A DNA stretch of 59,211 nucleotides from Thermoplasmata archaeon (GCA_046761005.1 JBHIFI010000003.1:1-59211); one strand, 5' to 3'; positions 35,038 to 52,777 are shown, counted from the stretch's first letter. Notes: generated by a model from the sequence alone, not told the origin. Program-made: numbers and translations.

Positions 35038-35362
35038 TCTATCACCTTTCCTTATTATGTAACTTCATGGTTTTAATGATTCAAGGGGGAGGTGGATGAA
35101 ACTAATCTTCAATTCATTTCAGCTGCCTCTGGATATTGCTTCGCATGATCCAAGAGCCATATTGTGAGTTGGTGAGTAGATGAGGATTATTCAGATACGT
35201 CTCACCGGACTGAATGATAATCCTATGAAGGTGAATCGACTTGCCCTCTGAGACATTGTTGCGGGGGATATCGGGAGGGGAAGACAAGAAGAAGTAGGGT
35301 CTCATGTATTGCGGGAAAAGCAAATAACGCAGAGTTCGCATGTCCATCCAAGTCGGGATAAG

Positions 35363-37549
35363 ATGAAAAGTATGATCACGACAGCAACAATAGTGTTCCT
35401 ATTGATCTCGGGCTTATGGTCGGCCTTGACTGTGCAGGCAGACGATGAAGCTGTTTTGCCCAGAAATTTCCGCCAAGAAACACCAAAGGCATCCCGCGGT
35501 GATGTTGTCTCTTCAAATGGTACGTATATGGGCCATAACTGGTACATCGATGAGAATCACATGATTTGGTGGGATGACAAACCTCACATCAGGTATGGAT
35601 TTACTGGCTCACCAAGAATAGATGATATTGACGAATTTATTGGTATGGGATTCAACCAATTTTCCATTGGTCCCGGTGAAGGTGAGTATGTTTTCAGCGA
35701 CAATACTGAAGATCACATAAGGAGCCGTGATGGCATTGACAATTATACCACCATACTTACAGGTAAGGGATGCACCTATTTCGCAGGTTTGAACCTTCTA
35801 CTGCCGTGGAAAAACTCTGGGAAGATCGCTGACGAAGACAGAGTCATCTTCCTCTACAGAAAACTATTCGATGTAACCGAATACAGTGACCAGTCAGCAC
35901 AGATAGAACTGTTGATGCAATTTGAGGAATCATATGAGGGTTACACACTCAAGAACGAGAGTACAGCGTATCTGTTTGATTTCTCAGCGGGACAAATGAC
36001 AGATATATCTGAAAAGATAGATAATATAACATGGGAGGAGAGAGCCGGAGGGGAGACGGACGATGAGGCGAGGAGATTCGATTTGGTAGTATCGTTCTCA
36101 ACTATCGATTTCCCGGACTCATTCCATCTGGTCATTGTTGTTTCCGTCCCAATTCAGCACGAAACCGTTTTTGCTTGGGATTTTCCAGCACTCTGGAAAG
36201 ATAATATTCGCGATTATTATAATAATTCGCTTAATTTTTTCAAGGATGCATATCGGAAGGATGGTTTGAGAGGTATGTTGTTCGGAGATGAGATCGGCAT
36301 TTCCAACAAGACATTGTTCATGTGGATGTACGAAGATTTCAACGACGATACTACGGCAATGAACTATTTTCATCAATGGCTTGAGGGTCAGTTTGAGAGT
36401 GTCGAGAACCTGAATCAATATCTGGGCACAAGCTACGGTGCAATCGAAGATGTAAGTTGGAATATCACTCCGCTTCCTTACGAGTCGGTTGCGCATCTAG
36501 AAGAAGTTGAGGAACCCACACTCTTCGGTCTGTACGATTCAGTGGAACAAGTTGGAAGGCTGAATTCCCTGCAAAATGACTTCATATTCTGGTTCTACGG
36601 GCACTGGTATGCTGAGTATGCCAAAACTGCAAAAGAGACCATCGGAGATGTACCTGTCTTTACGACAGTCTGGGCGAGCCAAAATGTTAACCCACTTCGG
36701 ATTCACTATGAGGCAATGCTTGAGGGCGTAGACGGTCTGATTAGGAATAGCTACGGTCAAGTCGTATCTGATGCTGAGGGGAGAAAGGGCATTGGCTTCC
36801 AGTCTGAAGAAGACACACAATTACAAGACCTTGAGGCTATTGAAAATATGATCGATAGCGCAGAGAGGGAAGGCGGATACACAAAAGCCTATCTTGCGAA
36901 CGAGTTCTATTGGGTTCAGGCTATAGGTGATGAGCCCATCGAAGGAGGCGTGCATTTTAAGTTCCCTACAAATTCGGATCTAAAGGAATTTCTTAAGGTG
37001 ATGATTGACCACGGTTATCGTGGATTTCACATGTTCATCATGGATCCAAGCGATGTCTACCGTTCTGAAGACAGTTTGCAGAGGGAAGATATGCTTTGGC
37101 TTTCTGAGCTTAAACCTGAAATCTTGGGCTATATGCTTGGTAAAGGCACAATTGAAGGAGAGGTCAAGACCACGTCAGGTAGCGGCATCTCAAACGCTAC
37201 GATTTTAATCACTTACTCAAGCAATGGCACAGTGTTGACTGAAGCAAAAACAGACACTGACGGTTTATTCTCAACACCATACGATTCTATCGGTAGCTAC
37301 AATGTCCCCGAGGGAACGTATGATATCACCGCAAGTAAGACAGGATACGAAACCTCCGAAAGAAACAATCAAACGGTAATCAGAGGTGAGATAACCCACA
37401 TATCGCTTGTGGTCCAACCCAAGAAAGTTGAAAGGGAAAACCTCTTTGGAGAGCTTTGGTTTTGGGTCCTCATAATTGCAATCTCTTTAGCCATCGCTTC
37501 CCTGATCATATTCATCAGGAAGAGGGTGAAACACGATGGCGATAAATGA
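35363..37549 (+). CDS. Secreted, C-terminally membrane-anchored protein with TIM-barrel-glycosidase-like region and CarboxypepD_reg-like beta-sandwich
   Basis: Signal-like N-terminus MKSMITTATIVFLLISGLWSALTVQA. IGMGFNQFSIGPGEGEYVF resembles GH42/GH35-type barrels. GTIEGEVKT...DTDGLF...GTYDITASKTGYE matches the regulatory-domain fold. A C-terminal TM helix is followed by RKRVKH. Function call is weak. Confidence 0.75.
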   Translation: MKSMITTATIVFLLISGLWSALTVQADDEAVLPRNFRQETPKASRGDVVSSNGTYMGHNWYIDENHMIWWDDKPHIRYGFTGSPRIDDIDEFIGMGFNQFSIGPGEGEYVFSDNTEDHIRSRDGIDNYTTILTGKGCTYFAGLNLLLPWKNSGKIADEDRVIFLYRKLFDVTEYSDQSAQIELLMQFEESYEGYTLKNESTAYLFDFSAGQMTDISEKIDNITWEERAGGETDDEARRFDLVVSFSTIDFPDSFHLVIVVSVPIQHETVFAWDFPALWKDNIRDYYNNSLNFFKDAYRKDGLRGMLFGDEIGISNKTLFMWMYEDFNDDTTAMNYFHQWLEGQFESVENLNQYLGTSYGAIEDVSWNITPLPYESVAHLEEVEEPTLFGLYDSVEQVGRLNSLQNDFIFWFYGHWYAEYAKTAKETIGDVPVFTTVWASQNVNPLRIHYEAMLEGVDGLIRNSYGQVVSDAEGRKGIGFQSEEDTQLQDLEAIENMIDSAEREGGYTKAYLANEFYWVQAIGDEPIEGGVHFKFPTNSDLKEFLKVMIDHGYRGFHMFIMDPSDVYRSEDSLQREDMLWLSELKPEILGYMLGKGTIEGEVKTTSGSGISNATILITYSSNGTVLTEAKTDTDGLFSTPYDSIGSYNVPEGTYDITASKTGYETSERNNQTVIRGEITHISLVVQPKKVERENLFGELWFWVLIIAISLAIASLIIFIRKRVKHDGDK

Positions 37550-37611
37550 GTATGCGTTTCCCGGAATTTAGGTGGATATGTAGCCGCCTAGGGGACGTGC
37601 TTCCGGCTCAG

Positions 37612-38133
37612 CTACCTTTCCCAGAGAATGAGGCTAAGGACAGCGTCACCAGATTTTCCAAAGCAGACCATAGGATACCTCCACCTTATCTGGAAATAGT
37701 CGTCAGGCGCAGCAATATCGGGGTCTGCGAAGAACACTCTCGTGGTAACATTGGAGCTTTCGTTCTCGTAGACTGATGTCATGTAGAAATCGTATCTCTT
37801 AGGTATCAGGTCCCTTGCAAAATCGTATAGAAGCATATCGCAGAAAACGAGCGGCTCGATGTCACCTCCATCATCCGCAACGCTTGTTCTGAGAAGCATA
37901 TACTTATCGACCGCTGATTTGGAATAATTGATTCCGCATTCCTCGAGGTTAAGGGTACTACGCATGAGAACGATGAACGTATCCTCCGCATAATCCTTCA
38001 CATCCGAGATGGACTCGATTTCAGCAAATCCTAGATGACTCGGAAAGCTCATCAGTGAGAGAGCCGCACTCGTACTCACCAACAAGAGAAATATGACCGC
38101 ATCCGTAATCGCGAGCTGAGCTTTCTTGTTCAT
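37612..38133 (-). CDS. Pilin-like protein with class III signal-peptide-like N-terminus (173 aa)
   Basis: MNKKAQLAITDAVIFLLLVSTSAALSLMSF has a short basic leader, a small residue, then about 20 hydrophobic residues. No other TM segment; no family recognised. Confidence 0.65.
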   Translation of the reverse strand: MNKKAQLAITDAVIFLLLVSTSAALSLMSFPSHLGFAEIESISDVKDYAEDTFIVLMRSTLNLEECGINYSKSAVDKYMLLRTSVADDGGDIEPLVFCDMLLYDFARDLIPKRYDFYMTSVYENESSNVTTRVFFADPDIAAPDDYFQIRWRYPMVCFGKSGDAVLSLILWER

Positions 38134-38134
38134 T

Positions 38135-38584
38135 TCATCGTCTCCATATGATTATCGTCATTCGGGCGGCATGCGTTTCATTGGGGCTGACCCATACATT
38201 GCAGCTCGTCGTTGCTCCAATCACATCACCAACTGGCTCGGAAGTCTGGAAGATATGGTCAGTAGAGTTCGATACATCGTGTATGACCAGCCGAAACTCA
38301 TATGAGGTCTGCAGGAACTCTCTGAACCGCTCAAGGGACGTGCTCCTCAGAAAAGCCCCATTCAATAGGAGATATTCTCCGTCCTTAGTGAGGCGAGGAT
38401 GGGAGACAATCCTCTTGAGAAGTTTCCTAGCCTCTTCTTTCATCTCAAGCGTTTTCTGAATATCTACCTCGCTGGCTACCATACTCGATAGGCTTGTCAG
38501 AAGTAGGCACAGAGCTACGGAGACGACCGCCAACGCTATCAATTCTTCCAGAATGTTCGAAATTGCTCTCTCGTCCCTCCACAT
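38135..38584 (-). CDS. Pilin-like protein with class III signal-peptide-like N-terminus (149 aa)
   Basis: MWRDERAISNILEELIALAVVSVALCLLLTSL resembles the archaeal RA|xS-type prepilin leader plus a hydrophobic helix. 1-nt gap to the next pilin-like gene. Confidence 0.65.
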   Translation of the reverse strand: MWRDERAISNILEELIALAVVSVALCLLLTSLSSMVASEVDIQKTLEMKEEARKLLKRIVSHPRLTKDGEYLLLNGAFLRSTSLERFREFLQTSYEFRLVIHDVSNSTDHIFQTSEPVGDVIGATTSCNVWVSPNETHAARMTIIIWRR

Positions 38585-38699
38585 ATTGTGACTAACGAGG
38601 CACTGGGTAAATATCTTTCCAAGAAGGTTTTTAAATGTCTCCGATGTTGCATATTTTGCGTGGAGGGATTCAGGTCTGGGATCCTGTGAGTCCAGATAT

Positions 38700-39218
38700 A
38701 TGAAGGATAGGGAGTTGCTCCAGATTGATTGTACTGGTTGCGACGTTCAGCCCGATTTGAGGAGGCATGAGTGCTTCGTAGGTGTTCTTCTCTCATTCGA
38801 TAGCAAGCTGAACATAGAAAGGATTATTCTTTCGGGAACGGTGGTCAAGCAATACTCAAAGAAGAGCATAAACCTCTTTTCCAAAATGAGGAGTATTTTG
38901 GATACCCTTTCGACGCTCAAGGGAGAGCTGAATCAGCGTTTTCAAGCGGAGAAGTCGAGAAAGGAATTGAAACACTGCTCTCGATGTCAGAGGGATCCAA
39001 GGAAGCTTTTTGGCGGGATTGAAATCGCCTTTCTGAGGGATCTTGCTGAGTTCTTCTCGTCCCTAAGAAGTGTGCTTGATGTTTCCATGGAGGATGCCCC
39101 GCCTAGATGCGAGCTTTGCCTTCTTCAATTGAAGAGAGACGCTCTCATCCTTCTCGATGAGGCACTATCTCTGAGAAAATATGCACTCAAAGAAGGCCTC
39201 GGAATCGTGGAGGGATAA
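38700..39218 (+). CDS. Hypothetical Cys-rich protein (172 aa) preceding the pilus ATPase
   Basis: CxxC pairs at aa 11/14, 93/96 and 137/140, plus H23/C25. No TM segment and no signal peptide. Divergent from the pilin-like pair across a 115-nt AT-rich spacer. Confidence 0.65.
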   Translation: MKDRELLQIDCTGCDVQPDLRRHECFVGVLLSFDSKLNIERIILSGTVVKQYSKKSINLFSKMRSILDTLSTLKGELNQRFQAEKSRKELKHCSRCQRDPRKLFGGIEIAFLRDLAEFFSSLRSVLDVSMEDAPPRCELCLLQLKRDALILLDEALSLRKYALKEGLGIVEG

Positions 39219-39331
39219 TCTCGATCACGAACATCTCGAGAGGATCAGCTAGAATACGCGACCCCTATGGGCGCGCAGCTCTCAAGATTAGGAGAATAGA
39301 CACCAGCGCCATTCAGCGCTCCATCGGAAGA

Positions 39332-40987
39332 TTGCTCGCAAAGGACCAGATGTGGAAGCCCTTTTTTAGCTCCTTTTGGATTCTGGGCGATCCTCCTGAA
39401 CATCTCGAGGAAACTGCCAGTTACTCGGTCGGAGAATCCCATGTCCATATATATCGCATGGAAAACTCTTCCGACTTCCTGTATTGGCTTTCCCCTCCTT
39501 CATTCGAGATAAGGGAGGAGGAACTCTCGCTGTTATGGAGGGTAATTGATGAGATATGGTCCGTTCCACCCAGAACCCTTGACCTGGGGAACTTCGTGCA
39601 GGTTAGACGCTACGTTAGGAATCGGGCAAACGACTTGATAGCGCTTCGTCTGCCGAGGACTATGAGGAAGGCCGAGCGGTTGCTCAGGTCACGCTTCCTG
39701 GCCGGAATCCTTGAGAGAAATGCCGTCGGGCTAGGTGCATTAGAAATCCTGCTCTCTGATTTCAATGTTCAGGACATCTTCCTAGATGCACCGTGCGAGA
39801 GTATTCCCATTCATCTTACTGTTGCCGATGCTGGGGGAGATAGATTTCACCAAAGATGTGTTTCGAATATTCTCATGGACGAAGGATCACTACGGAACAT
39901 CATATCCAAACTTCTTCTCATGAGCAAGAGATCGTTCTCGGAGAGGAATCCAGTTTTAGAGATGGATCTGGGTGAGATGAATGCTAGGTTGACGGCAGTG
40001 CGTCCCCCGCTCAGCCCGGATGGAATTGCCCTTGCTCTTCGTAGGCACTCAACGGATCCATGGACCCTCACCAAGCTAATCTACCACAGAAGTTTGACGC
40101 CTCTTGCTGCGGGTCTCATATCGTTCCTTATAGACGGCAATGCAACAATGCTCGTTACGGGCAGTCGCGGAGCGGGGAAATCCTCTCTTCTAGGGGCGAT
40201 GATGTTTGAATTCCCGATCAGCCAGAGAATACTCACCATAGAGGATACTCTCGAGCTTCCCTGCCCAGAGCTTCGCCAGCTCGGGTATAAAGTTCAGAGT
40301 CTTTACGTAGGGTCCGAGTCCTCGTCTGAAGGTGATATGACAGCCGAGGAAGCTCTCAGAGTTTCACTTCGCTTGGGCGAGTCGGCCATAATCCTCGGAG
40401 AGGTGAGGGGCAAGGAGGCAAGAACGCTGTATGAGGCAATGCGAGTCGGAACTGCAGGCTCGGCCGTTCTGGGAACGATACACGGAAGCTCTTCTAGGAG
40501 CGTATATGAGCGCGTTGTCCACGATCTTGGCATTCCTCCGCAATCCTTCTCCGCCACGGATGTTGTCGTCGTCGCGGGCCTTTTGAGACCGCGAGGCACT
40601 CAGAGCCCTAGGCGAAGAATAATCGAGATATCCGAGCTCTGCAAGGAATCCTATGATGGTAGGTTTCTCCAACTGATGAGATACAGTATCTCACAGGACA
40701 CGCTCGTTGAGACCGAGGCCTTTCTTTCCGATTCCAGAAAGATTCGAGAGATAGCGAATTCCTGGGGAATGAGTTACGAGGAAGCAATCGCCAACATAAA
40801 CATGAGGGCTGAGTGCAAGCGTCACATAGCCGATCTCGCAAGGGAATTTGGAAGAAAGCTGCTCTCGGCAAGGTTCCTATCATTGGCCAATTCTGCCTTC
40901 TCGTCCCTGATTGAGAAGGGCTACTCTGAAGAAGAACTCTTGAGACGATGGAAGAACTGGATAGATGTGAGGGCGGGGTATGCCTAG
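39332..40987 (+). CDS. Type II/IV secretion-family ATPase (ArlI/PilB/VirB11-like)
   Basis: Walker A GSRGAGKSS, Asp box ILTIEDTLEL, Walker B AIILGEVRGKEA, His box GTIHG. The start is either TTG 39332 or ATG 39350. Confidence 0.9.
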   Translation: MLAKDQMWKPFFSSFWILGDPPEHLEETASYSVGESHVHIYRMENSSDFLYWLSPPSFEIREEELSLLWRVIDEIWSVPPRTLDLGNFVQVRRYVRNRANDLIALRLPRTMRKAERLLRSRFLAGILERNAVGLGALEILLSDFNVQDIFLDAPCESIPIHLTVADAGGDRFHQRCVSNILMDEGSLRNIISKLLLMSKRSFSERNPVLEMDLGEMNARLTAVRPPLSPDGIALALRRHSTDPWTLTKLIYHRSLTPLAAGLISFLIDGNATMLVTGSRGAGKSSLLGAMMFEFPISQRILTIEDTLELPCPELRQLGYKVQSLYVGSESSSEGDMTAEEALRVSLRLGESAIILGEVRGKEARTLYEAMRVGTAGSAVLGTIHGSSSRSVYERVVHDLGIPPQSFSATDVVVVAGLLRPRGTQSPRRRIIEISELCKESYDGRFLQLMRYSISQDTLVETEAFLSDSRKIREIANSWGMSYEEAIANINMRAECKRHIADLAREFGRKLLSARFLSLANSAFSSLIEKGYSEEELLRRWKNWIDVRAGYA

Positions 40988-42836
40988 GAATGGGATTGCC
41001 TTCACGAGATTCTGTAGACTCGCTCATTCCATACTCGGACCTCTACGGTGCAAGACGAAGTCAAGAAGAAGAGAGATTGCAGACATGGGAACGGGGTCAA
41101 GTGCGAAAACACGCTTCGCTTCCATTCTCGGAAGATCTCAAAACACGTTGGGTGTGGATAGGAAATCGCTTGAAGATAATATCTCATTTGCGGGACTCGG
41201 GTTGAAACCCGAAGAGGTGATTTCAGGAGGACGCCTTGCTCTGTTGCTCTCCCTCCCCTCTATTCTTGTCATCCCATTCGCTCATTCTCATCCCATCTCT
41301 CTTATTTTCGCGGTCATCATCCCTCCAATTGCTCAGAGGACAGTTGTTTCCTATCCAGCGGCCCTTGCTTCGAGGGTGGAGAAGTCATCTTTCAGGGAGG
41401 CCCCAGAAGTGACGAGTTATCTGATTGGAGGGGCGGGGGAGGCACTGTCCCATGAGAACGCAGTTCTCACTGCTGCAAAGAACTCTAGAGGAATGCTCAG
41501 GCCAGGTTTTCAGCGGATGGTATGGCTCGTCTACACTAAGGGAAGAAGCCTCCCAGAAGAATTTAGGAAATATGCTCATAAATGGAGGAGCAGAAATGAG
41601 GGGTTTGGAGAGACGCTGATGCGATTATCTGGAGCAGTAGAAGAGAAGGGTGGGGAAGATTTAGCCTCCTTGCTCATGCCCCTTCACATCTATACGAAAA
41701 GTAAGTTGAAGGGATTTCTCTCCTCTCTCAGGGCTCCTATCAATGTCGTTTTTGCACTAGGGATAATCCTTCCCGTCATGATTGCATCCATCTTGCCGAT
41801 GTCCTCGCTGGCGGTTGCAAGTCCCACGGATTTCTCCAACAAGAATATCACACAAATCCAGGGTAACACCCCCCATCCTGCTCTGATTGCTGTCATCCTC
41901 GATATCATATTCCCGGTCGCCATGTTCCTTTACTGCAGAGAGGTGCTTTCCAGGCGACCATTCTCTTTTCTGCACACCCGCCCACTCAGGCTCACAGATT
42001 TCTCGATCCCTATCATCGCTCTCCTGCTCTCGATTATCATCTTCTCTGTTGGGATAGTCTTTTGGCTTCAGCACAAAGTCCCTCAGATTTCCCTCATGAT
42101 ACTCGCTTTCACATCAATGACGATGGCTTTTTCCTTATTCTTTGTGGGAAGATCGAGGTCCGATATCAAATCGCGAAAGCTTTCAGAGGAGTTCCCGGAC
42201 GTGCTGGAGCGTCTAGGCAACTTCCTCTCGGCGGGTGAGTCCCTAGAAATCGCCGTACTCAAGACTGCGAAAAAGATGGAGGGAACAGAGACAGCAAGGA
42301 GATTTTCCAATGCCCTCTTTCTGCTATCGAGGGGAGAATTCGATATTGGAGACATCTTGACTCGCGATACCGCGATGAAACAGGAATCGAGTGTGGTGGC
42401 GAATCTGAGGATGATTGTCGACATTGCTGAGAAGGATATAGCATTAGCTGGAAACATAGCGAAGCGCATAGCTTCCAATATGAAGGAAGTTTCGAGGATT
42501 GAAAGGGACGCGAAGGATGATATCAAGCCCATCGTTCAGACAGTGAGTAACACAATCACTTTTTTCTCCCCCCTCGTACTCGGCGTTACCGCCTCCATAT
42601 TCCTGCTCATGGAAACCTACTTCTCTGAGTCCAGTGGAATTACATCTTTTTGTTTCATCCTCATTTTGGGTGTACTTCTGTACTGCAACTTGGCGGTGGC
42701 AAGCTATTTCACAGAAGGCCTTCAGACCGGGGATTCTCACGAATTGCTCAAGGTGATCGGAAAAGGAATCCTTCTATCGACGCTCATCTTCTCGCTCTCC
42801 TTCCTGGCATCTTCTTTTCTCTTTGGCGTCCTTTGA
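40980..42836 (+). CDS. Polytopic membrane platform protein (ArlJ/TadC/PilC-like, T2SS-F type)
   Basis: 618 aa with alternating cytoplasmic helical domains and TM clusters, in two repeats. 8-nt overlap with the ATPase gene; canonical ATPase-platform pairing. Confidence 0.8.
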   Translation: MPRNGIAFTRFCRLAHSILGPLRCKTKSRRREIADMGTGSSAKTRFASILGRSQNTLGVDRKSLEDNISFAGLGLKPEEVISGGRLALLLSLPSILVIPFAHSHPISLIFAVIIPPIAQRTVVSYPAALASRVEKSSFREAPEVTSYLIGGAGEALSHENAVLTAAKNSRGMLRPGFQRMVWLVYTKGRSLPEEFRKYAHKWRSRNEGFGETLMRLSGAVEEKGGEDLASLLMPLHIYTKSKLKGFLSSLRAPINVVFALGIILPVMIASILPMSSLAVASPTDFSNKNITQIQGNTPHPALIAVILDIIFPVAMFLYCREVLSRRPFSFLHTRPLRLTDFSIPIIALLLSIIIFSVGIVFWLQHKVPQISLMILAFTSMTMAFSLFFVGRSRSDIKSRKLSEEFPDVLERLGNFLSAGESLEIAVLKTAKKMEGTETARRFSNALFLLSRGEFDIGDILTRDTAMKQESSVVANLRMIVDIAEKDIALAGNIAKRIASNMKEVSRIERDAKDDIKPIVQTVSNTITFFSPLVLGVTASIFLLMETYFSESSGITSFCFILILGVLLYCNLAVASYFTEGLQTGDSHELLKVIGKGILLSTLIFSLSFLASSFLFGVL

Positions 42837-42936
42837 TTTCTGAAATCACGAATACATTCAAAGGACCACGATCGTAGACCCTCCGATTTGTATTCGATCT
42901 TCAAGTAGCAGTTTAGAGGATGTCCTTGGCGCGTGC

Positions 42937-45900: not shown

Positions 45901-46608
45901 ATGATCTATGCGGGCATCCACTCTGCCGAAGTCCTTACCCTTGTAGGAGAAGAGTATGGACTCTTCTGGAAGTATGTCGAGAACGGTGTCGACTCCCTCT
46001 GGATAAAAAGTGATTACCTCCGCCTCGAATGTCCCCGTTTCCGAGACGAGTTCAGGGCTGACCTTATACGCGGGGTGAAAGACTCCGACCCACTGCACCG
46101 CCTGCACTCTCCCGAGGGCCGCTCTCATCCCAGGATCGATTCTGACAAGGAAAGCATTGAAAGGCACGTAGTTCACGATTTCAGCGCCCGCCTGAGAGAG
46201 GGACTCCTTCCACTCCCTTCTCACAGGCCCTCGAAACTGAACTATATAGTAGCCAACAGCACCTTCTGAATAGTCTGATATTCTGAGCTCATCAGGAATT
46301 GAAGGCTCTCCTTTTCTAGTATCGAACGAAAAACCGCGAATGCCTATGAGGTAAAGCTCCTCCGTTTGTATGTCAAAACCCTGAGCGGTGAGTTCAGCTA
46401 TCTCGTCCTCCGTAAGGCTTGCCAAGACGAAGCCTTCGTACTCCTCAGTAATGCGGTAGGAAGAAAGTGTTTCGGCCTGCTGCGGTGAGGATATGGAGAT
46501 TCTGACATCCAGTACATCTCCTCTCGTCGAACTATTCTCAATCGGAATGATGGTAATAAGAAAGACAAGGGGGAGCAAGACTGCCAGGATTCTGCCTTTT
46601 CTTGTCAT
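42937..46608 (-). CDS. Secreted multidomain S8 subtilisin-like serine protease (1223 aa)
   Basis: Signal-like N-terminus and an I9-like propeptide (YIVQFRGPV..NAFLV). Triad context FSDTGIDFDH / SGHGTMVTG / GGTSYSAP, with oxyanion HSNSWG. An Fn3/PAP-N-like domain (ANVIWRTNEATDSKVYY). No TM anchor. Confidence 0.9.
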   Translation of the reverse strand: MTRKGRILAVLLPLVFLITIIPIENSSTRGDVLDVRISISSPQQAETLSSYRITEEYEGFVLASLTEDEIAELTAQGFDIQTEELYLIGIRGFSFDTRKGEPSIPDELRISDYSEGAVGYYIVQFRGPVRREWKESLSQAGAEIVNYVPFNAFLVRIDPGMRAALGRVQAVQWVGVFHPAYKVSPELVSETGTFEAEVITFYPEGVDTVLDILPEESILFSYKGKDFGRVDARIDHDQLVRVANLVDVNFIQPREVFYIHNSRMQWIMQTNINENRRIWDMGIRGERQLVGFSDTGIDFDHNLFREDAITIQNGDIYNATDMTRRKLVRYYVHGDPSDEWSWKDTPNRQDPDSGWWTSGHGTMVTGTFGGNDDPIATSSNDGGAKGAKIFFQDIGGIRWLSGVRIDSLKYIPADYDDLFGPAYDAGARIHSNSWGSYTTVYTMGAQMVDEFMWNHPDMLIIFSNGNGGRTNMASPATAKNVLSSGSGRTSPIQDSVAGYSSTGPTSDGRRKPTVIAVGEGISSMSSGNPRDNINTAWEGSWGGTSYSAPDHASLAAMTRQYFMEGWWPSGTKVPLDGFEPSAALVKAMLTASARQMQGQNSDSKNEDTWPNNSQGWGRVLLDDALYFAGDTRRLELFDDRIGLNTGEFNMESYYVLDSSEPLRIILAWTDYPGVAWTSPNIANDLDLLVTDPLGNTYKGNVFGTMAQGESLPNTGSYDRLNVLEGAHIESPMVGAWSVRVTAANAPNGPQPYALVTLGDLGTGWGQVFLDQSVYGENDTIGISVRDTGPSTVDVTMWSTTEPTPELISLNETSPGSGRWVGYINTSQGPPTTDGELQVSHGDLVTVQYIDDDPPHTSTDTATIDATYPLIFNIFVMNITSTSANVIWRTNEATDSKVYYNESDPLDLEEYVSGYRLEHDVLLTNLKPETIYKFDVESSDPYGHTTKDSNGGLHWQFQTLKLSPEPPTNPRAWLFGPDYDHVHIEWELSVDDPGLVDHYAIYYSTLAYDPDGTGYQLLATVPSGLNFFDHYLAGHGNPMNIYYVIQANYSAGLPARAEDQVAKFTRWTPAGPVLLSFPLKMVNESIEYALKTVSWDVMRYYDAWDDSDHWKEYHRWKNWNDLPTINQTMAIWVNVTSPEPVTHAGVVPRGMSIHLKEGWNLVGFPHMYYDYTVNDLSAQTGAERVEAFNVAAPPYFLYSLSGTTYMAPGEGYWIKVPAHTFWIL

Positions 46609-46652
46609 GGGTCTCCACTTAGTGTTCAGCTAAGCTTCCTATGAAAGGTTGC

Positions 46653-49600
46653 CTAGGTATAGACGGTCCAGAGATAATTGGCATTTCCGATCCAGTAGGC
46701 TTCCCCCGCAGTTAGTACAAACGAATCCGGTAGTTCCTGGAGGAAGTAGGGTGCTAATGCAGAATACCCCTCGACCTTAGCTGCTCCTGAACTCGCCTTC
46801 AGCTCTCCGACAGTCATTGACCCAGTCAGCGAAGGATAGCCCACGAGTGTCCAAGGTTTTGAGAGAGTAATGTCCACCTGAGACTGCACCCAGCCAGCAA
46901 CAACGAAATCGCCTGCTTGGACCACATCTACCCAGTAGCCCCTGTCCAAAGAGATTGTAGTAAGGACTCCCTTGTATGGCTTGAAATCCATATAGCTCTG
47001 CCACTTACCAGAATCTGAGTCGTATGTCCACACTTTGTCGAATTGCAGCGTTTGGAATACAGATGCCACAGTTCCGTTGGATGGAGTAATCGGGATGGAG
47101 ATGAGTTGTACGCCTGCAGAAAGGGACCTCACGAATTTCCCAGCCTGTTGCGAGGCCCTACTCGCATCTCCACCAGTACTGTTGGAGTAGATCGCATAAT
47201 AGATGGAACCTCCAAGCCCGGCTCCAGAGTCAACATAGATTTCTGTCTGATTGGGCACGGTCGTGAGGAAGGCGTAACTCGCTGCGGTTGGGTCGTAGCT
47301 ACTTCCGTAGTATATGGAGTAATGATCCACATCGAGCGGGTCATCTGGTGAGAGGGTCCAAGTCAGCGTTATGTCTTCGTAACTCGGTCCTGTCAGGGCC
47401 GCCATGAAGTCCGAGGGAGGCTGGACTATCTTGCCAAGAACCTCAAAGCATCTCGATGAATAGAGTCCCCAATTGTTCGCTGAGTCCTGTCCATGAACAA
47501 AGACACACCGCGTTCCAGGGGACCAGTCTGCGGAACCAGTCCATGTGACCTCCTCAGTGGGCGTATCAAAGACATCAACTGGGTTCATCGGAGTTCCTGT
47601 TCCGTTTTGTCCAGGAGCATCGATGAAGAACTCTGCCGCCTGAATCGTAGAGTTCCCAAAGTTCGTATCATCCACGATGGCTGTGAAAGTAACAGTCAGA
47701 GATCTTTCAACCGGATTTGGTGTCGAACCCACGCTTCCAGGAATAGTGATGGGACCCTCACTATCTCCTCCCGGTCTCAGAATGGTGAATGGGTCATCCG
47801 AGATATCCGAACCATTGAGCATGGGATAGGGAATTCCATCATCCTGAACCACAACTTTCACGCGGTAGTTTATTCCATTCTGCAGAGTGCTGATGTCCCA
47901 GTTGTAGGTCGTATCTCCTACTGCCGGGTCAGGGAAGATTCTAATCCACGATTGTCCATCATCTGGGCTATAGAAGAGGGCTTGACCGTTGATACCTGTC
48001 GAATATACCTGGCGACTCCACTGTATCTGAATGGTATCTCCAGTGTAGATCTCTCCGCCATTCGGTGAGATGACCTGAACATCTGGGTGGTCGTGTCCTA
48101 TCAGCCAGACTATCGTCTTGTTTATGACGGAACCCCTCGCAGCACTATCAACTATCCCCGTGACCTCGAAGAAGTAGGCCACCAACTTTGAGGGCATGCC
48201 TCCCCAGACCTTTCCAGGTCCTGCTGTTCCATTTGCAGCAGAGGAAATCCATTTGACTGCGATTGGAGCTTCATTTGCATCGCCATCGTAGTCCCTCCAG
48301 ACATAGGAGGGCGTTCCCCCGTAGCTTTGCGCGATAACCTCATCTCCACGGTCACCACCACCCCATGGCCTGTGCCCTTGGTAGTCCAACCGGCTAGTAC
48401 CGAAATATTCGTTGCTTATGGGGTCTCCTATAATCCCTTCCACGGAGTCGAAGAACCGAGGATCTGCATCCCAGTCCGACTTCAATGTCGAGTTCACCCA
48501 TTGGCCTGTCTGAACGGTCGCATAGTCCGAGCCTGAATCCTTTGCAAAAGCCCACGCAACATCATGCGAGGAGATGAAGAATCTTCCTCCTTCGTCGATA
48601 TAATTCGTGATCAGGGTCATATCCTCAGGTTCAAAGGGCGGATATTCCTCTAAACCAGTCTGCCACATAACCACCTTGTACCCCTGCAAGAACGAGAGGC
48701 CCGGAATTCCGCTTCTTTCAACAAACCATTCATTGTTTGACCATCCAAACATCTCGAAGGCATTCTTGTATCTGTCCAACCTCTCATATGTGAAGGTCTC
48801 GTGACCAATAACGAGGAGAATCTCTCCCTTCTCTGTGGTGTGGAAGCTGTAATGTTGCCCACCATTATCGTCACGTGTCGTATGACCAAACCTGTCTGTC
48901 GATTCAACATCGAAATAATACTTTGTTCCCGTCGTAAGATTGGTAAGGTCTACTGAGTGTGAGACGAAATATCCGCCCGGTTTCTTGGTCTCGCTGTTAC
49001 TGAGGGAAATCGGGTTGGTATCATAGTATACCTTTGATGTAGCCGATTCATCCGTATTCCAGATTACTGTTGCCGCTGCATTCGTTATTCTTGTCGCTCT
49101 CACATCCGTTATCATCGGAGGCGCACCGTCTATTACTGCCGTCTTCTGGATTGCTCTCTGCGGAGGTGTGACATCAACGTATTCAACTGTGACGGTATCA
49201 TCATCACTCACCTGAAGAATACCATCCGTGACGGGGATTCCATATGAGGTGTCGATCGAGCCCTCATAGACCCCTGCTCCAGTTCCAGTCAAGGTGACGG
49301 TTTCAGGGGTGATCTCTGTATCGCTTGTCACTTCAACCGTCAGCGAAGGACCAGCATCCGTGTCTTCCACCCTTATTCTTATGGTATCAGAATCTCCATA
49401 TATCGTCTTGTCCAGGAAAAGCTGACCGTAGCCTGGATCGATCGCACCGAGTATTGACAGCGCGAAAGGTTGAGGACCTGAGGGAATGTTTGTTCCTGTC
49501 ACCCTCACCCTCCAGAAGCCGATGTCAGGAGCCAATACCAAGACCCCTTCCACAGGATTGTCAGTATCATAGGAACCAGCCCCCCATTTCGATTCTACTA

Positions 49601-51788
49601 GCTCAGTTCGAACATCCTTTCCTGTCCAGAATACGTTTCCCTTGTAGACGTTTCCTCCAGGAGAAGTGACAGTCAAATCGAGATTGTTGACAAGCGCCTT
49701 TGTTGTGGGAACGGCTCCAGGATAGTCGCTGTATGCCATTATGACTTTGAAAGGAACGGTATCGTCTGTGACGTAGTATTGATATTCCACGGTTTCCCCC
49801 GTCAAGAGGCCTGCCTTGTGATCTACGACCCGAAGTCTGTTCGTGTCGCCGGAGAAGTATAGCGAGTTGTTCATTATCACTCTTCCCCAACCTTGAGAGT
49901 GGTTTGGCCAACTGCCCTCCAACCTCCTATCCACGTAGTTTCCCTGCATCTGTTTTCCAGCTGCTACTATCGTTGATTTGAGCAGGGCGGCACTGGGAGT
50001 AAATCCATTCAAGACAACGGGATTGCCAGTTGGATACCAGCCTTCCATGAAATATTGGCGGGTTATTGCCGCGAGACCTGCAACCACAGGGCCTGAATAG
50101 CTCGTTCCTTGAAACCATCCTTCGAGGGCAGTGTTGATGTTGTCCCAGTTGTTTCCGGTGGAGCGAGAAGACATGCCTTCTCCAACCGCCATGACAGTGG
50201 GCTTCCGTCTTCCATCATCTGTAGGACCGACGGAGCTCGAGGAATCTACGTTATCCTGACTCATAGGAGAATCGCTCCAACCTACCGATATGCAACTCTT
50301 TGCGGTTGCGGGACTACCCGGTCCTTCCATTGCCCTATTTCCCGCTGAAAAAACGACGAGCATATCCGGATATTCCCACATGAACTTGTCGACCATCATG
50401 GCCTCGAGGTCATAGTCGATGTTCCTGGCGCCCCAGCTGTTGCTGTGAATTCTCGCGCCATCCTCATATGGGTCCCAGAACAAGTCATGGTAGTCGTCTG
50501 GTATGTATCGAAGTGCGTCGTCCCACCAATCCATAAATTCTGGGTTCTGGTATAGGGTGCCTACATCCTGCAGGAATATCTTCGCACCCTTAGCGATACC
50601 ATCGTTCGCGCTCCCGCTAATGGGATCGTCGTTTCCCAGGAGCGTGCCTGAGGTCATCGTTCCGTGGCCTGATGTTATGTTGCCTGGCTCCCACTTCCAT
50701 GCGCTATCCTTCCACGCCCATGGGTCTGTCGCCGGATCGATACCAACCCACTGACTCATCACCATATACCTTACCACTTTTCTTCTCGAGAGATCCGTGA
50801 CATTATAGATGTCCCCGGTCTGAATCACACCAGGACTCTCCCTGAAGAAGTTGTGGTCGAAATCAAGTCCCGTATCCGCGATGGCAATGACTTGGTTCTC
50901 ACCATGAAGCCCCATGTCCCATATCCTTCTGTTACCGAATTCATCTGTCTGCACAACCCACTGCATGTTCGCGTTCGTAGGCCTCATCTCATAGATGGGC
51001 TCCACGTACTGCACGCTATTGAGTCCAGCGAGACGGGGTATATCGTTGCTGTCAACCTTCGCCTTAACGACGCCGAAATCTTCGTTCTGGAAACGCGAGA
51101 GTATCTGATCTCTGTGCAAAGAACTTACTACCTGGCCGAGGCCCTCTCCTTTGAATGTGATAATCTTCACGGAAACCTCTCCGTTCGCGTCCAGTAGGAC
51201 TGGTCTTATCTTATACGCTGGATGGTAGATGCCCAACCACTGGACTTCCTTCAGATTTTTGACTTCTTTCAGGAGACTGTCATCGAGTTGAACGATGAAC
51301 GCATTGTTGGGAATGTAGTTGAGCACTCTGCCTCCGATCCTCTCGATTTCTTCCTTCCATTCTTCCTTTATGGGTCCGTAGAATTGCACAAGATAATGGC
51401 CGTCGATATCACTTCCATAGGATTCCAGCTTGAGACTGGGAACAATCTCCGGCTCCCCTGCCTGGGTGTCGATAATCATTCCATTGATGTAGATATTGTT
51501 CAGGCCGTATTCCTTTTCCACGATCATTCCTTTGGACTGAAAAAGATCATTCTGAGCATTTGTTGTCTTTGCGAGCGCAAACGAGTCATATATCTGCAAT
51601 ATCTCAGTGCCCGATTCTCTCAGAGTATCCAGGTCGTCCTCGGTATCGAAATACACCAATACGGTGTTCACAGCAACGGACTTCTGAGGAACGCCAAGAC
51701 CCACGAATTGTGTGGCGGGAATTACCATCAAAAGTCCTGTTGCGATTGCCAAAATCCTAGCGAATGATTTCTCCTTTGACAACTTCAT
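46653..51788 (-). CDS. Secreted multidomain S8 subtilisin-like serine protease, larger paralog (1711 aa)
   Basis: Same architecture as its neighbour: IADTGLDFDH / SGHGTMTSG / QGTSYSGPVVAG. GGGAGGAGG SD upstream. 44-nt gap to the downstream paralog. It carries a 470-aa insertion relative to the paralog. Confidence 0.9.
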   Translation of the reverse strand: MKLSKEKSFARILAIATGLLMVIPATQFVGLGVPQKSVAVNTVLVYFDTEDDLDTLRESGTEILQIYDSFALAKTTNAQNDLFQSKGMIVEKEYGLNNIYINGMIIDTQAGEPEIVPSLKLESYGSDIDGHYLVQFYGPIKEEWKEEIERIGGRVLNYIPNNAFIVQLDDSLLKEVKNLKEVQWLGIYHPAYKIRPVLLDANGEVSVKIITFKGEGLGQVVSSLHRDQILSRFQNEDFGVVKAKVDSNDIPRLAGLNSVQYVEPIYEMRPTNANMQWVVQTDEFGNRRIWDMGLHGENQVIAIADTGLDFDHNFFRESPGVIQTGDIYNVTDLSRRKVVRYMVMSQWVGIDPATDPWAWKDSAWKWEPGNITSGHGTMTSGTLLGNDDPISGSANDGIAKGAKIFLQDVGTLYQNPEFMDWWDDALRYIPDDYHDLFWDPYEDGARIHSNSWGARNIDYDLEAMMVDKFMWEYPDMLVVFSAGNRAMEGPGSPATAKSCISVGWSDSPMSQDNVDSSSSVGPTDDGRRKPTVMAVGEGMSSRSTGNNWDNINTALEGWFQGTSYSGPVVAGLAAITRQYFMEGWYPTGNPVVLNGFTPSAALLKSTIVAAGKQMQGNYVDRRLEGSWPNHSQGWGRVIMNNSLYFSGDTNRLRVVDHKAGLLTGETVEYQYYVTDDTVPFKVIMAYSDYPGAVPTTKALVNNLDLTVTSPGGNVYKGNVFWTGKDVRTELVESKWGAGSYDTDNPVEGVLVLAPDIGFWRVRVTGTNIPSGPQPFALSILGAIDPGYGQLFLDKTIYGDSDTIRIRVEDTDAGPSLTVEVTSDTEITPETVTLTGTGAGVYEGSIDTSYGIPVTDGILQVSDDDTVTVEYVDVTPPQRAIQKTAVIDGAPPMITDVRATRITNAAATVIWNTDESATSKVYYDTNPISLSNSETKKPGGYFVSHSVDLTNLTTGTKYYFDVESTDRFGHTTRDDNGGQHYSFHTTEKGEILLVIGHETFTYERLDRYKNAFEMFGWSNNEWFVERSGIPGLSFLQGYKVVMWQTGLEEYPPFEPEDMTLITNYIDEGGRFFISSHDVAWAFAKDSGSDYATVQTGQWVNSTLKSDWDADPRFFDSVEGIIGDPISNEYFGTSRLDYQGHRPWGGGDRGDEVIAQSYGGTPSYVWRDYDGDANEAPIAVKWISSAANGTAGPGKVWGGMPSKLVAYFFEVTGIVDSAARGSVINKTIVWLIGHDHPDVQVISPNGGEIYTGDTIQIQWSRQVYSTGINGQALFYSPDDGQSWIRIFPDPAVGDTTYNWDISTLQNGINYRVKVVVQDDGIPYPMLNGSDISDDPFTILRPGGDSEGPITIPGSVGSTPNPVERSLTVTFTAIVDDTNFGNSTIQAAEFFIDAPGQNGTGTPMNPVDVFDTPTEEVTWTGSADWSPGTRCVFVHGQDSANNWGLYSSRCFEVLGKIVQPPSDFMAALTGPSYEDITLTWTLSPDDPLDVDHYSIYYGSSYDPTAASYAFLTTVPNQTEIYVDSGAGLGGSIYYAIYSNSTGGDASRASQQAGKFVRSLSAGVQLISIPITPSNGTVASVFQTLQFDKVWTYDSDSGKWQSYMDFKPYKGVLTTISLDRGYWVDVVQAGDFVVAGWVQSQVDITLSKPWTLVGYPSLTGSMTVGELKASSGAAKVEGYSALAPYFLQELPDSFVLTAGEAYWIGNANYLWTVYT

Positions 51789-52063: not shown

Positions 52064-52777
52064 TTAGTCGCTGATGACTCTTGTAGCCTGGAATACCCCA
52101 CCCTCGAACAGAAGTGTATAGTAGTTGGGACTATGGCTCGTGCCCCTCATCTTCACGCATCTTATTCTTCTTTGTACGGTCACATCGTCGACATTCTCCA
52201 TCTTGACATGGATGATGCCATCCGCTATGAAGTCTTCTCCGTACCTGCCGAATGCCTTCTCACCTATGATCATCTCACTTATTATCAGGCTTGTAACTCC
52301 CAAGTCCCTAAGCCACTCGAAAAGCTGGAAGAGCTCCTCCCTTGGATATTCGAACCTTGCGAGGGTTTCAAGAATGGAAAGCGAGTCAACTGCAAAGAGC
52401 ACAAAGTCAGTGTTTTTCTTCAAATTGGAAGCATACATCTTGAAGATCTCGACCCAGGTTTGATTTTTCAGTGCCTCCAAGTTCTTTCTGATAAGACTGA
52501 GATCAACTATGCTCAGTTTGTCCTCAATATTCTGTGGATCCATCCCCATCCCCTTCATCTGCTTCAGCAGGCTTTTTCTCCCCTGCTCAAGGGATAGGAA
52601 GGCACCCACCTTGTCCTCTTTTAGAGCATTATTGTATAGTATGCTGAATGCCAGACTCGACTTCATCGTGCCGGGTTCGCCACATATAAGAACGATGTGC
52701 CCATTCGGTATCCCTCCATCTAACTTCTCGTCGAAGCCAGCAACATAACTCTTGATCCTACCGTCCTCTTCAATCAA
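52064..52777 (-). CDS. KaiC/RecA-superfamily single-domain ATPase (ArlH/KaiC-like)
   Basis: GFDEKLDGGIPNGHIVLICGEPGTMKSS (Walker A), FAVDSL (Walker B), RCVKMRGTSH. TTG start; 237 aa. Confidence 0.85.
   Translation of the reverse strand: MIEEDGRIKSYVAGFDEKLDGGIPNGHIVLICGEPGTMKSSLAFSILYNNALKEDKVGAFLSLEQGRKSLLKQMKGMGMDPQNIEDKLSIVDLSLIRKNLEALKNQTWVEIFKMYASNLKKNTDFVLFAVDSLSILETLARFEYPREELFQLFEWLRDLGVTSLIISEMIIGEKAFGRYGEDFIADGIIHVKMENVDDVTVQRRIRCVKMRGTSHSPNYYTLLFEGGVFQATRVISD

What the first reader, a model, noticed from the sequence alone, without database searches (positions are those of the whole stretch)
35363..51788. Minimal type IV pilus-like machine wedged between giant secreted hydrolases: candidate secretion or adhesion-degradation module
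Seen in sequence, in order:
- A signal-peptide surface protein with a glycosidase-like barrel (35363-37549).
- Two co-oriented proteins with class III signal-peptide-like N-termini (37612-38584).
- Divergently, a Cys-rich unknown (38700-39218), an ArlI/PilB-type ATPase (39332-40987) and an ArlJ/TadC-type platform (40980-42836).
- Convergent with these, two tandem S8 subtilases of 1223 and 1711 aa (42937-51788).

Established knowledge: archaeal type IV filament systems need exactly an ATPase, a platform and prepilin-like proteins. In bacteria the homologous T2SS pseudopilus exports hydrolases. No T2SS-like export role is established in archaea.

Inference: this could be a filament or pseudopilus functionally coupled to extracellular proteolysis, either by export or surface display of very large proteases, or by attachment to particulate substrate. 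No archaellins, prepilin peptidase or obvious separate major pilin occur in the window, and the module is not arranged like an arl operon.
Basis: partly seen in the sequence, partly recalled or inferred. Interest (0 to 1): 0.78.

Follow-up and report, generated by a model that had tools for sequence, protein, structure and literature searches.

The report
Archaeal pilus genes beside secreted proteases
This is a genuine but fairly ordinary type IV pilus assembly gene cluster of an uncultured Thermoplasmata archaeon, and comparison with related genomes gives no support for the idea that it exports or displays the two giant proteases next to it.

Summary
The genes are real. Window 37612-42836 encodes a compact Tad-like archaeal type IV pilus (T4P) module:
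- two pilin-like proteins with class-III-type N-termini;
- a conserved Cys-rich partner protein;
- a T2SSE-family ATPase;
- a very diverged TadC/T2SSF platform that Pfam misses, shown through family members and a structure model.

The same core is found in most of 75 further Thermoplasmata loci, and about 64 of them have no subtilase within 10 kb.

The two S8 subtilases (42937-51788) have intact catalytic motifs and Sec-type N-termini, not class III. They sit in a separate, convergent transcription unit.

The pilus-S8 adjacency is inherited. It lies inside a backbone of housekeeping genes (fumarase-NMD3-MCM ... KaiC-like-216aa-ABCE1). The two parts vary independently:
- five sister genomes keep KaiC-S8-MCM with no pilus cluster;
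- another clade keeps the pilus cluster but has beta-helix proteins where the S8 would be.

The C-terminal domain shared by both S8s is a general exoprotein module, with 541 copies in representative genomes. Only 2 of 77 such loci lie near this ATPase.

The "glycosidase-like barrel" of 35363-37549 could not be verified, and that gene is absent from all related loci.

Verdict: a new member of a known kind. Functional coupling to proteolysis is unsupported but not excluded.

The parts
37612..38133 (-). Pilin-like protein A (173 aa). Class-III-type N-terminus MNKKA|QLAITDAVIFLLLVS. Probably a minor or core pilin.
   Evidence: One N-terminal hydrophobic helix. The motif [KR/G][GA]|Q-x-A-[ILV]-x-D-A is conserved in orthologues at 45-63% identity and in sister clades. 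One of only two hits in the window-wide FlaFind-like scan. No Pfam family.
38135..38584 (-). Pilin-like protein B (149 aa). N-terminus MWRDERA|ISNILEELIALAVVS. Lies 1 nt upstream of protein A, so probably in one operon with it.
   Evidence: Weak N-terminal matches to DUF7266 (E 0.15) and ComGE minor pilin (E 0.007). Orthologues are 54-69% identical.
38585..38699 (.). Divergent intergenic region with a BRE/TATA-like element, GAAGGTTTTTAAA, at 38623-38635.
   Evidence: The element is conserved in L001, L002, L003, L005, L010 and L035. It fits the generic promoter pattern of other genes in the window.
38700..39218 (+). Cys-rich cytoplasmic partner of the ATPase (172 aa). Cys at 11, 14, 25, 93, 96, 137 and 140. 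Predicted to bind metal.
   Evidence: No TM helix. Homologues lie directly upstream of the ATPase in at least 39 of 75 family loci. The Cys residues are invariant. It is fused in frame to the ATPase in L041, L057, L061, L063, L065 and L102. No Pfam or PDB family.
39332..40987 (+). Secretion/pilus-assembly ATPase of the VirB11/TadA/CpaF-like T2SSE family (551 aa).
   Evidence: PF00437, 72.8 bits. TadA model 125 bits, FlaI model 89 bits against a cut-off of 550, BasE model 74.5 bits against a cut-off of 1000. PDB: 2OAP 94 bits, CpaF 89, FlaI 71. The Walker A motif GSRGAGKS and other catalytic columns are invariant in alignment A3. 4727 relatives at E<=1e-10.
40980..42836 (+). Polytopic membrane platform, a strongly diverged TadC/T2SSF (618 aa). 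Overlaps the end of the ATPase gene by 8 nt.
   Evidence: No direct Pfam hit. Family profile finds 998 representatives. 35 of 51 members hit PF00482. AF2 model with pLDDT 86 matches EpsF/OutF cytoplasmic domains with probability 1.0. About 9 TM segments in two repeats.
42937..46608 (-). Neighbour, not shown to belong to the machine: S8 subtilase (1223 aa) with a Sec-type N-terminus and a C-terminal fn3/beta-sandwich module (about the last 262 aa).
   Evidence: PF00082. Triad motifs D294, H360, S545. N-terminus MTRKGRILAVLLPLVFLITIIPI. It is a paralogue of the next gene, at 44-49% identity, and is absent as a second copy outside the window clade.
46653..51788 (-). Neighbour: S8 subtilase (1711 aa) with a Sec-type N-terminus, the same C-terminal module, and its own BRE/TATA-like element at 51875-51887.
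   Evidence: PF00082. Triad motifs D305, H375, S563. Orthologues lie next to the KaiC-like gene across the order, with or without a pilus cluster. Promoter-like element.
52064..52777 (-). Neighbour: single-domain KaiC-like ATPase (237 aa) upstream of the S8 pair. Part of the conserved backbone. Not ArlH.
   Evidence: PF06745, 148 bits. The ArlH model gives 51 bits against a cut-off of 215. It is 86-89% identical within the clade and 55-62% in sister lineages, and is always beside the giant S8 and the 216-aa gene.
35363..37549 (+). Variable neighbour, not part of the module: membrane-anchored surface protein (728 aa) with a signal peptide, an undetermined N-terminal domain, CarboxypepD_reg and a C-terminal TM helix.
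   Evidence: No homologue in 186 related loci. The same slot holds Band_7, small membrane paralogues or nothing in relatives. Low GC of 0.45-0.47.

Best explanation
Window 37612-42836 is a self-contained Tad-like archaeal type IV pilus assembly locus. It belongs to a type that is widespread in uncultured Thermoplasmata.

Proposed mechanism (inferred by analogy with studied archaeal T4P and bacterial Tad pili):
- The two small proteins enter the membrane through their N-terminal helix.
- A prepilin peptidase encoded elsewhere in the genome cuts them after the G/A of the class-III-type signal.
- The hexameric ATPase acts through the diverged TadC platform to lift them out of the membrane into a filament. 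The ATPase is assisted or regulated by the Cys-rich metal-binding partner, which some relatives carry as an N-terminal fusion.
- The two proteins probably serve as priming or minor subunits.
- The major pilin may be encoded at a remote locus, as in Haloferax and Cuniculiplasma.
- The most likely product is an adhesive surface pilus.

The two giant subtilases next door are an independent, Sec-exported, separately transcribed unit. Their position beside the pilus cluster is inherited chromosomal synteny, not a functional operon.

Shown here: gene identities, family membership, motif conservation, gene-order history.
Inferred: processing, filament assembly, adhesive role, independence of expression.
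For: Component identities.

Class-III-type N-termini are conserved and unique within the window.

The same core (pilin-like genes, Cys-rich gene, ATPase, platform) occurs in 70-75 further Thermoplasmata loci in many different genomic contexts.

The Cys-rich gene is fused to the ATPase in six loci.

Overlapping or abutting genes suggest two small divergent operons.

Evidence that the S8 genes are a separate unit:
- convergent orientation and their own promoter-like element;
- Sec-type N-termini in all orthologues;
- KaiC-S8-MCM without any pilus cluster in L020, L022, L023, L024 and L026;
- the pilus cluster at the same MCM-side position with beta-helix proteins instead of S8 in L061, L063 and L070;
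- a C-terminal module shared with at least 541 genes, of which only 2 of 77 sampled loci lie within 10 kb of this ATPase. Its fold is generic tandem fn3-like beta-sandwiches.

Literature:
- ATPase/TadC modules often use pilins encoded in trans (PMC4858521, section 11).
- In Cuniculiplasma the pilin genes lie about 500 kb from the machinery operon (PMC12448462).
Against: - No major pilin, prepilin peptidase or filament has been seen for this lineage. Function is inferred from homology only.
- The pilus-S8 adjacency has survived rearrangements of the pilin-side flank in L006 and L010.
- The adjacency is present in three ATPase clades.
- The slot next to the platform is repeatedly filled by large exoproteins that carry the same C-terminal module: one S8, two S8s, or NosD-like proteins.
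- The ATPase-operon and S8 promoter-like elements share an identical 11-base core (GAAGGTTTTTA) within a 13-mer pattern found nowhere else in the window.
- These points are compatible with some co-regulation or functional link.
- The platform and pilin-like proteins of this clade are unusually diverged from the rest of the family, at 25-30% identity.
Confidence: 0.7

Rival explanations
1. Adhesion-degradation regulon. The pilus attaches the cell to particulate protein, and the neighbouring subtilases digest it. The units are transcribed separately but co-regulated, so keeping them adjacent is selectively favoured.
For: - Adjacency is kept across the window clade and sister clades L036/L037 and L048.
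- It persists although the other flank was rearranged in L006 and L010.
- BRE/TATA-like elements sharing the same 11-base core lie upstream of both units and are conserved in orthologues.
- Both units have unusually long leaders compared with other genes in the window.
Against: - The whole region is syntenic, including housekeeping genes with no plausible link.
- S8 persists without the pilus cluster in five sister genomes.
- The pilus cluster persists without S8 in about 64 of 75 loci.
- The shared motif fits the generic BRE/TATA pattern of this genome, and the S8 copies vary at the 'GG' positions in relatives.
- The motif was defined after seeing the two sites, so its statistic is biased.
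- There are no expression data.
Confidence: 0.15
2. Pseudopilus or bindosome-like export and display system. The ATPase, platform and pilin-like proteins form a short piston or scaffold that releases or positions the giant subtilases, and perhaps all exoproteins carrying the shared C-terminal module. This would be an archaeal analogue of the bacterial T2SS.
For: - The locus encodes only two small pilin-like proteins and no obvious major pilin.
- The genes next to the platform repeatedly encode large exoproteins with one shared C-terminal module, either S8 or NosD-like.
- Like T9SS cargo, proteins with this module are scattered over the genome and could in principle be served in trans.
Against: - The S8 proteins have Sec-type signals, not class III signals. 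Bindosome substrates have class III signals; that statement rests on my own knowledge.
- Archaea with a single membrane need no outer-membrane transit step.
- The C-terminal module is a generic tandem fn3-like fold.
- The module shows no enrichment near this ATPase: 2 of 77 loci.
- The ATPase scores far below the BasE model cut-off, 74.5 against 1000 bits.
- The S8 occurs without the cluster in sister genomes.
- A missing major pilin in the locus is normal for archaeal T4P (PMC4858521; PMC12448462).
Confidence: 0.05
3. The locus builds a type IV filament with a role other than adhesion, for example cell-cell contact, DNA exchange or surface motility. It is still unrelated to the proteases.
For: - Archaeal T4P have diverse roles (PMC4858521).
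- Several MAGs carry two paralogous loci of this family, for example L064/L075, L046/L069 and L082/L107. This suggests functional diversification.
- One relative, L012, lies next to an integrase/MCM-like element.
Against: The locus has no DNA-handling genes and no second (retraction) ATPase. Nothing in the sequence separates this reading from simple adhesion.
Confidence: 0.1

Closest known systems
Euryarchaeal 'clade 2' type IV pili (Haloferax volcanii PilB3-PilC3 with PilA pilins, and the PilB4-type locus), as catalogued by Makarova, Koonin and Albers 2016 (PMC4858521)
   Same: - A VirB11/TadA-type ATPase and a TadC platform in one operon.
- Small pilin-like genes with class III signals nearby.
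- The major pilin is often encoded elsewhere.
- Uncharacterised Cys-rich cytoplasmic proteins and KaiC-family ATPases are described as frequent associates of archaeal T4P loci.
   Different: - Placement in clade 2 is inferred, not tested with reference sequences. The best solved relative is the Archaeoglobus GspE-like ATPase.
- The platform of this clade is too diverged for the Pfam T2SSF model.
- The Cys-rich partner matches no described family.
- The lineage (MAG-only Thermoplasmata) was not in the 2016 census.
CdiP pilus machinery of Cuniculiplasma divulgatum, Thermoplasmatales (PMC12448462)
   Same: - A Thermoplasmata host.
- T4P machinery of ATPase plus platform.
- Pilin genes can lie far from the machinery operon.
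   Different: - CdiP has two ATPases and a split platform. This locus has one of each, plus a Cys-rich partner and two adjacent pilin-like genes.
- Sequence relatedness to CdiP was not tested.
Bacterial Tad/Flp pilus (CpaF/TadA ATPase, TadB/TadC platform)
   Same: - The ATPase scores best against the TadA-family model, at 125 bits, and matches CpaF structures at 89 bits.
- The platform belongs to the T2SSF/TadC superfamily.
   Different: - No secretin, TadZ, TadD/G or Flp-type pilin.
- Scores are below the equivalog cut-off of 373 bits.
- Archaeal single-membrane context.
Sulfolobus bindosome assembly system (BasEF plus BasABC)
   Same: A minimal set of ATPase, platform and a few small pilin-like proteins, with no obvious long-filament pilin. 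It is the only archaeal T4P-like system linked to positioning other exported proteins (own knowledge; the bindosome is mentioned in PMC4858521).
   Different: - The BasE model score is 74.5 bits against a cut-off of 1000.
- Bindosome clients carry class III signals, whereas the S8 proteins here carry Sec-type signals.
Bacterial type II secretion system
   Same: A homologous ATPase and platform, with pseudopilin-like small proteins. T2SS substrates are often hydrolases.
   Different: - No secretin and no GspC/L/M.
- No outer membrane to cross.
- GspE models score only 28-38 bits.
- No genomic co-variation with the hydrolases.

Membership tests
Archaeal type IV pilus (Tad-like) assembly system | VirB11/TadA-family secretion ATPase with intact P-loop | tested here: met
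   PF00437, 72.8 bits against a cut-off of 24.9. PDB relatives 2OAP, CpaF and FlaI. Walker A and catalytic columns are invariant in alignment A3.
Archaeal type IV pilus (Tad-like) assembly system | Cognate polytopic TadC/T2SSF platform encoded next to the ATPase | tested here: met
   No direct Pfam hit. However, 35 of 51 family members hit PF00482, the model matches EpsF/OutF domains with probability 1.0, and the gene overlaps the ATPase gene by 8 nt.
Archaeal type IV pilus (Tad-like) assembly system | Pilin(s) with a class III signal peptide: a short charged leader, G/A at -1, then a hydrophobic helix | tested here: met
   Motif-level test only. Both small proteins match and nothing else in the window does. 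The motifs are conserved in orthologues. The regular expression was written from memory of FlaFind, not the published program. No pilin Pfam family hit.
Archaeal type IV pilus (Tad-like) assembly system | Prepilin peptidase (PibD/ArlK/EppA, Peptidase_A24) | not testable with these tools
   None found in the 59-kb window. The only multi-TM ORFs are MFS, DUF998, VTT, a Zn-ribbon membrane protein and the platform. The rest of the genome is not available.
Archaeal type IV pilus (Tad-like) assembly system | An assembled extracellular filament | not testable with these tools
   Needs microscopy of an organism known only from metagenomes.
Archaellum (arl/fla operon) | ArlI-type ATPase with archaellins and ArlF/G/H/J/C/D/E or X | tested here: not met
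   FlaI/ArlI equivalog model gives 89 bits against a cut-off of 550. The KaiC-like neighbour gives 51 bits against 215 for ArlH. No archaellin or other arl gene was seen among the window ORFs that were scanned; not every ORF was scanned.
Bindosome assembly system (Bas) | BasE-type ATPase, and clients bearing class III signal peptides | tested here: not met
   BasE model gives 74.5 bits against a cut-off of 1000. The neighbouring exoproteins have Sec-type N-termini.
Type II secretion system | GspE ATPase, GspF, pseudopilins plus secretin and GspC/L/M, and substrates that depend on the system | tested here: not met
   GspE models give 28-38 bits against cut-offs above 600. There is no secretin or GspC/L/M gene in the locus. 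Substrate dependence is not testable, and gene co-variation is absent.
Subtilase (peptidase S8), for the two neighbours | Asp-His-Ser catalytic triad in a Peptidase_S8 domain | tested here: met
   PF00082 at 107 bits for each. DTG, HGT and GTS motifs are present in both.

The most novel reading that the evidence does not exclude
The diverged ATPase, platform and two-pilin module may be a pseudopilus-type device. It would serve, in trans, the large set of Thermoplasmata exoproteins that end in the shared fn3/beta-sandwich C-terminal module, including the two adjacent giant subtilases. Its role would be to release them from, or position them on, the S-layer-less cell surface. That would be the first T2SS-like or T9SS-like cargo system in archaea.
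Probability: 0.05. Interest if true: 0.85.

Novelty: new member of a known kind. Interest (0 to 1): 0.3.

Why it matters
That would bear on how uncultured sediment Thermoplasmata degrade detrital protein. The comparative evidence does not support it: the pilus cluster and the proteases are gained, lost and replaced independently.

What remains is modest but useful:
- A very large Thermoplasmata-wide T4P family is now delineated. In this clade its TadC platform escapes standard annotation.
- The family has a conserved Cys-rich partner with seven to eight conserved cysteines, sometimes fused to the ATPase.
- An abundant, unannotated C-terminal module marks dozens of exoproteins per genome in this order.

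These give handles for annotating surface structures and secretomes of uncultured Thermoplasmata.

Tried and rejected
1. Direct Pfam and NCBIfam annotation of the platform, the pilin-like proteins and the Cys-rich protein gave nothing. A PDB sequence search with the narrow platform profile gave nothing. The wider profile gave only a marginal GspF hit, E 0.046. The question was settled through family members and a structure model.

2. The word-indexed protein search found only 14 platform relatives and 10 relatives of the C-terminal module. This badly understates both families; compare.

3. I first concluded that the pilus cluster was a single recent insertion between S8 and MCM. I revised this after the ATPase-centred scan showed the same position occupied in sister clades. 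The present reading is an old shared position with independent losses and replacements.

4. I considered the KaiC-like ATPase as an ArlH-like part of the machine. I rejected this because it scores far below the ArlH cut-off and stays with the S8 and the 216-aa gene in genomes that lack the pilus cluster.

5. I considered class III signals on the S8 proteins, because of 'KG|RILAV' in the window copy. I rejected this because the G/A and the charged residue are not conserved in orthologues.

6. I considered the shared 13-mer GAAGGTTTTTAWA as a specific co-regulation site. I downgraded it because it fits the generic BRE/TATA pattern of other promoters and was defined post hoc.

7. I tested the C-terminal module as a possible pilus-related domain. 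Its fold is generic tandem fn3-like, and it shows no enrichment near the ATPase.

8. For the 'glycosidase-like barrel' of 35363-37549, the PDB sequence search and the plasmid protein search found nothing.

9. The Cys-rich protein gave no meaningful PDB or Pfam match. The hits were only a ferritin helix at E 0.01 and scattered Zn-finger noise.

10. The sigma-70 promoter and terminator scanner was not used, because the host is an archaeon.
Full report
**What is in the sequence**

The host is an uncultured Thermoplasmata lineage. The ATPase has 79-84% identical orthologues in five Thermoplasmata MAGs. The window otherwise carries chromosomal housekeeping genes: topoisomerase VI, diphthamide synthase, fumarase, NMD3, MCM and ABCE1.

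**The pilus module (37612-42836)**

- ATPase (39332-40987). It is a T2SSE-family protein (PF00437, 72.8 bits). It is closest to TadA/CpaF-type and Archaeoglobus GspE-like ATPases, and clearly below the archaellum ArlI and bindosome BasE model cut-offs.
- Platform (40980-42836). The 618-aa protein overlaps the ATPase stop codon and has no Pfam hit.
  - An exhaustive profile search finds 998 representatives of its family.
  - 35 of 51 aligned members match T2SSF.
  - A confident model (pLDDT 86) matches the cytoplasmic domains of EpsF/OutF with probability 1.0.
  - It is therefore a TadC-type platform, strongly diverged in this clade.
- Pilin-like proteins (37612-38133 and 38135-38584, minus strand). 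Each has one N-terminal hydrophobic helix preceded by a short charged leader ending in A or G: KKA|QLAITDA and ERA|ISNILEE.
  - These motifs are conserved in orthologues and in sister clades.
  - In a FlaFind-like scan of all ORF starts in the window, only these two match.
- Cys-rich protein (38700-39218). It is a genuine family component.
  - Homologues sit directly upstream of the ATPase in at least 39 of 75 related loci.
  - Seven cysteines are invariant, and most relatives have an eighth.
  - In six loci it is fused in frame to the ATPase. It therefore most likely works as a metal-binding accessory domain of the motor.
  - It matches no described family.
  - Makarova et al. 2016 note other, unrelated Cys-rich cytoplasmic proteins in archaeal T4P loci (PMC4858521, section 17).
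- No prepilin peptidase, archaellin or further pilin-like gene was found among the window ORFs that were checked.

**The neighbours**

- Both subtilases have full S8 domains and intact triad motifs.
- Their N-termini, and those of all orthologues, have a basic n-region followed by an h-region. There is no conserved [KR][GA] cleavage site ahead of the helix, so they are Sec-type.
- They are convergent to the ATPase operon. The upstream one has its own BRE/TATA-like element.
- Their last 262 residues or so form a shared module: fn3 plus further beta-sandwiches (pLDDT 94.6; tandem-fn3 matches).
- The 35363-37549 protein has a signal peptide, a CarboxypepD_reg domain and a C-terminal anchor. No glycosidase signal is detectable. 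It has no counterpart in any related locus.

**Gene-order history**

1. Within the window's family-level clade (KaiC-like 82-89% identical, ATPase 68-84%), one block is kept in L001-L006, L010 and L035: pilins | Cys-ATPase-platform | S8-S8-KaiC | 216-aa gene. The pilin-side flank varies.

2. Loci centred on the KaiC-like gene show a much wider conserved backbone: amidohydrolase-VTT-ABCE1-216aa-KaiC-giant S8-...-MCM-NMD3-fumarase.

3. In five sister genomes (L020, L022, L023, L024, L026) a single S8 is separated from MCM only by a small FmdE-like gene. There is no pilus cluster.

4. Eighty loci centred on the ATPase family show the following.
 - The pilus cluster sits at the same MCM-side position, next to a single S8, in L048. 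It sits next to FmdE-S8-KaiC in L036/L037.
 - It is at the MCM position in L038 and L045.
 - In L061, L063 and L070 the place of the S8 is taken by two NosD/beta-helix proteins and a third protein. All three carry the same C-terminal module.
 - All other loci, about 64 of 75, have no S8 within 10 kb.
 - A rough neighbour-joining tree groups the loci that share this context.

So the adjacency is old, but it lies in a region where unrelated housekeeping genes are equally syntenic. The pilus cluster and the S8 have each been lost or replaced without the other.

**Is the shared C-terminal module a link to the pilus?**

- A scan with its most conserved motif found 541 coding stretches in representative genomes. 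Ten or more come from single MAGs, including close relatives of the window.
- Of the 77 best loci, only two have this ATPase within 10 kb. Both are the L070 and L065 regions already known.
- The module occurs on S8, NosD/beta-helix and Big_4 proteins.
- It is a general exoprotein module of this order and is not enriched at pilus loci.

**A possible regulatory link**

- The 13-mer GAAGGTTTTTAWA occurs only twice in the window, upstream of the ATPase operon and upstream of the large S8.
- Both copies are conserved in orthologues.
- The S8 copies vary at the GG positions.
- The pattern matches the general GAAGG/GAAAG-TTWAWA promoter form of other genes in the window.
- The pattern was defined from these two sites. 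I treat it as weak evidence at most.

**Conclusion**

The locus is a Tad-like archaeal type IV pilus assembly module of a large, uncharacterised Thermoplasmata family. It probably builds an adhesive filament, with the major pilin and the peptidase encoded elsewhere. That arrangement is documented for Haloferax and for Cuniculiplasma (PMC4858521; PMC12448462).

The giant subtilases are Sec-exported neighbours by descent. A T2SS-like or bindosome-like role is not excluded, but it has no positive support beyond proximity.

Limits of this work:
- no expression data;
- no complete genome for the window's organism;
- the class III test was a home-made pattern;
- the ATPase tree was neighbour-joining without reference sequences;
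- the fold of the 35363-37549 protein was not tested.

Noticed in passing
window 42937-43725 and 46653-47441 (minus strand); also L070 13877-21629 and L110-L186: An unannotated C-terminal module of about 262 aa ends both S8 proteins and many other exoproteins (NosD/beta-helix, Big_4) of this Thermoplasmata order. It consists of fn3 plus further beta-sandwiches and has the motifs GWNLVGFPS and GxGYW. There are 541 coding stretches in representative genomes, and 10-15 or more in single MAGs. It may be a surface-anchoring or stalk module in S-layer-less cells.
   Followed up: partly
window 38700-39218; L041, L057, L061, L063, L065, L102: The Cys-rich partner of the ATPase has 7 invariant cysteines, and most relatives have an 8th. 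In six loci it is fused in frame to the N-terminus of the ATPase. It matches no Pfam family and no solved structure.
   Followed up: partly
window 38623-38635 (+) and 51875-51887 (-): The 13-mer GAAGGTTTTTAWA occurs only at these two places in 59 kb, upstream of the ATPase operon and of the 1711-aa S8. Both copies are conserved in orthologous loci. It looks like a near-consensus BRE/TATA element, and both units have long leaders (about 70-95 nt from TATA to start codon).
   Followed up: partly
window 52064-52777 (-) and 52944-53594 (+): A single-domain KaiC-like ATPase and a divergently transcribed 216-aa protein of no known family form a pair conserved across the order (KaiC 55-89% identical, partner 44-83%). 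The pair is always beside the giant S8 and ABCE1. The overlapping ORF 52052-52597 (+) is only the antisense shadow of the KaiC-like gene.
   Followed up: partly
L022, L026, L038, L045, L048 (MCM genes) versus window 32751-34844: The MCM orthologue carries an insertion of about 1.5-2 kb, the size of an intein, after residue 390 or so in several sister lineages (ORFs of 1261-1358 aa). The window's MCM (697 aa) has none.
   Followed up: no
L012 1-10000: In one relative, the pilin side of the pilus cluster is occupied by a tyrosine integrase, a short MCM-like helicase, a DNA ligase fragment and an AAA/TPR protein. This suggests an integrated element inserted next to the Cys-ATPase-platform operon.
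   Followed up: no
window 34900-38600; L002 3100-5600, L035 6900-8250, L006 359-3290: The slot between MCM and the pilin genes is variable and low in GC (0.45-0.47 in the window). The window has a unique 728-aa surface protein. Relatives have a Band_7 protein, two or three small proline-rich membrane paralogues, a 428-aa protein, or nothing.
   Followed up: partly
L020, L023, L024, L026 (between S8 and MCM); L036/L037 13598-13993; L012 13813-14007: A small FmdE-like gene (N-terminus MDLPEELAALQRFHGHLG...) lies between the giant S8 and MCM, or between S8 and the platform, in sister lineages. It is missing from the window clade.
   Followed up: no
L008 7529-9688, L009: The most distant word-search hit to the platform is P0014 (719 aa, 22% identity). 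It lies in a different context, with four small membrane proteins, an SLT-domain protein and no T2SSE ATPase call within 10 kb. Its nature was not resolved.
   Followed up: no
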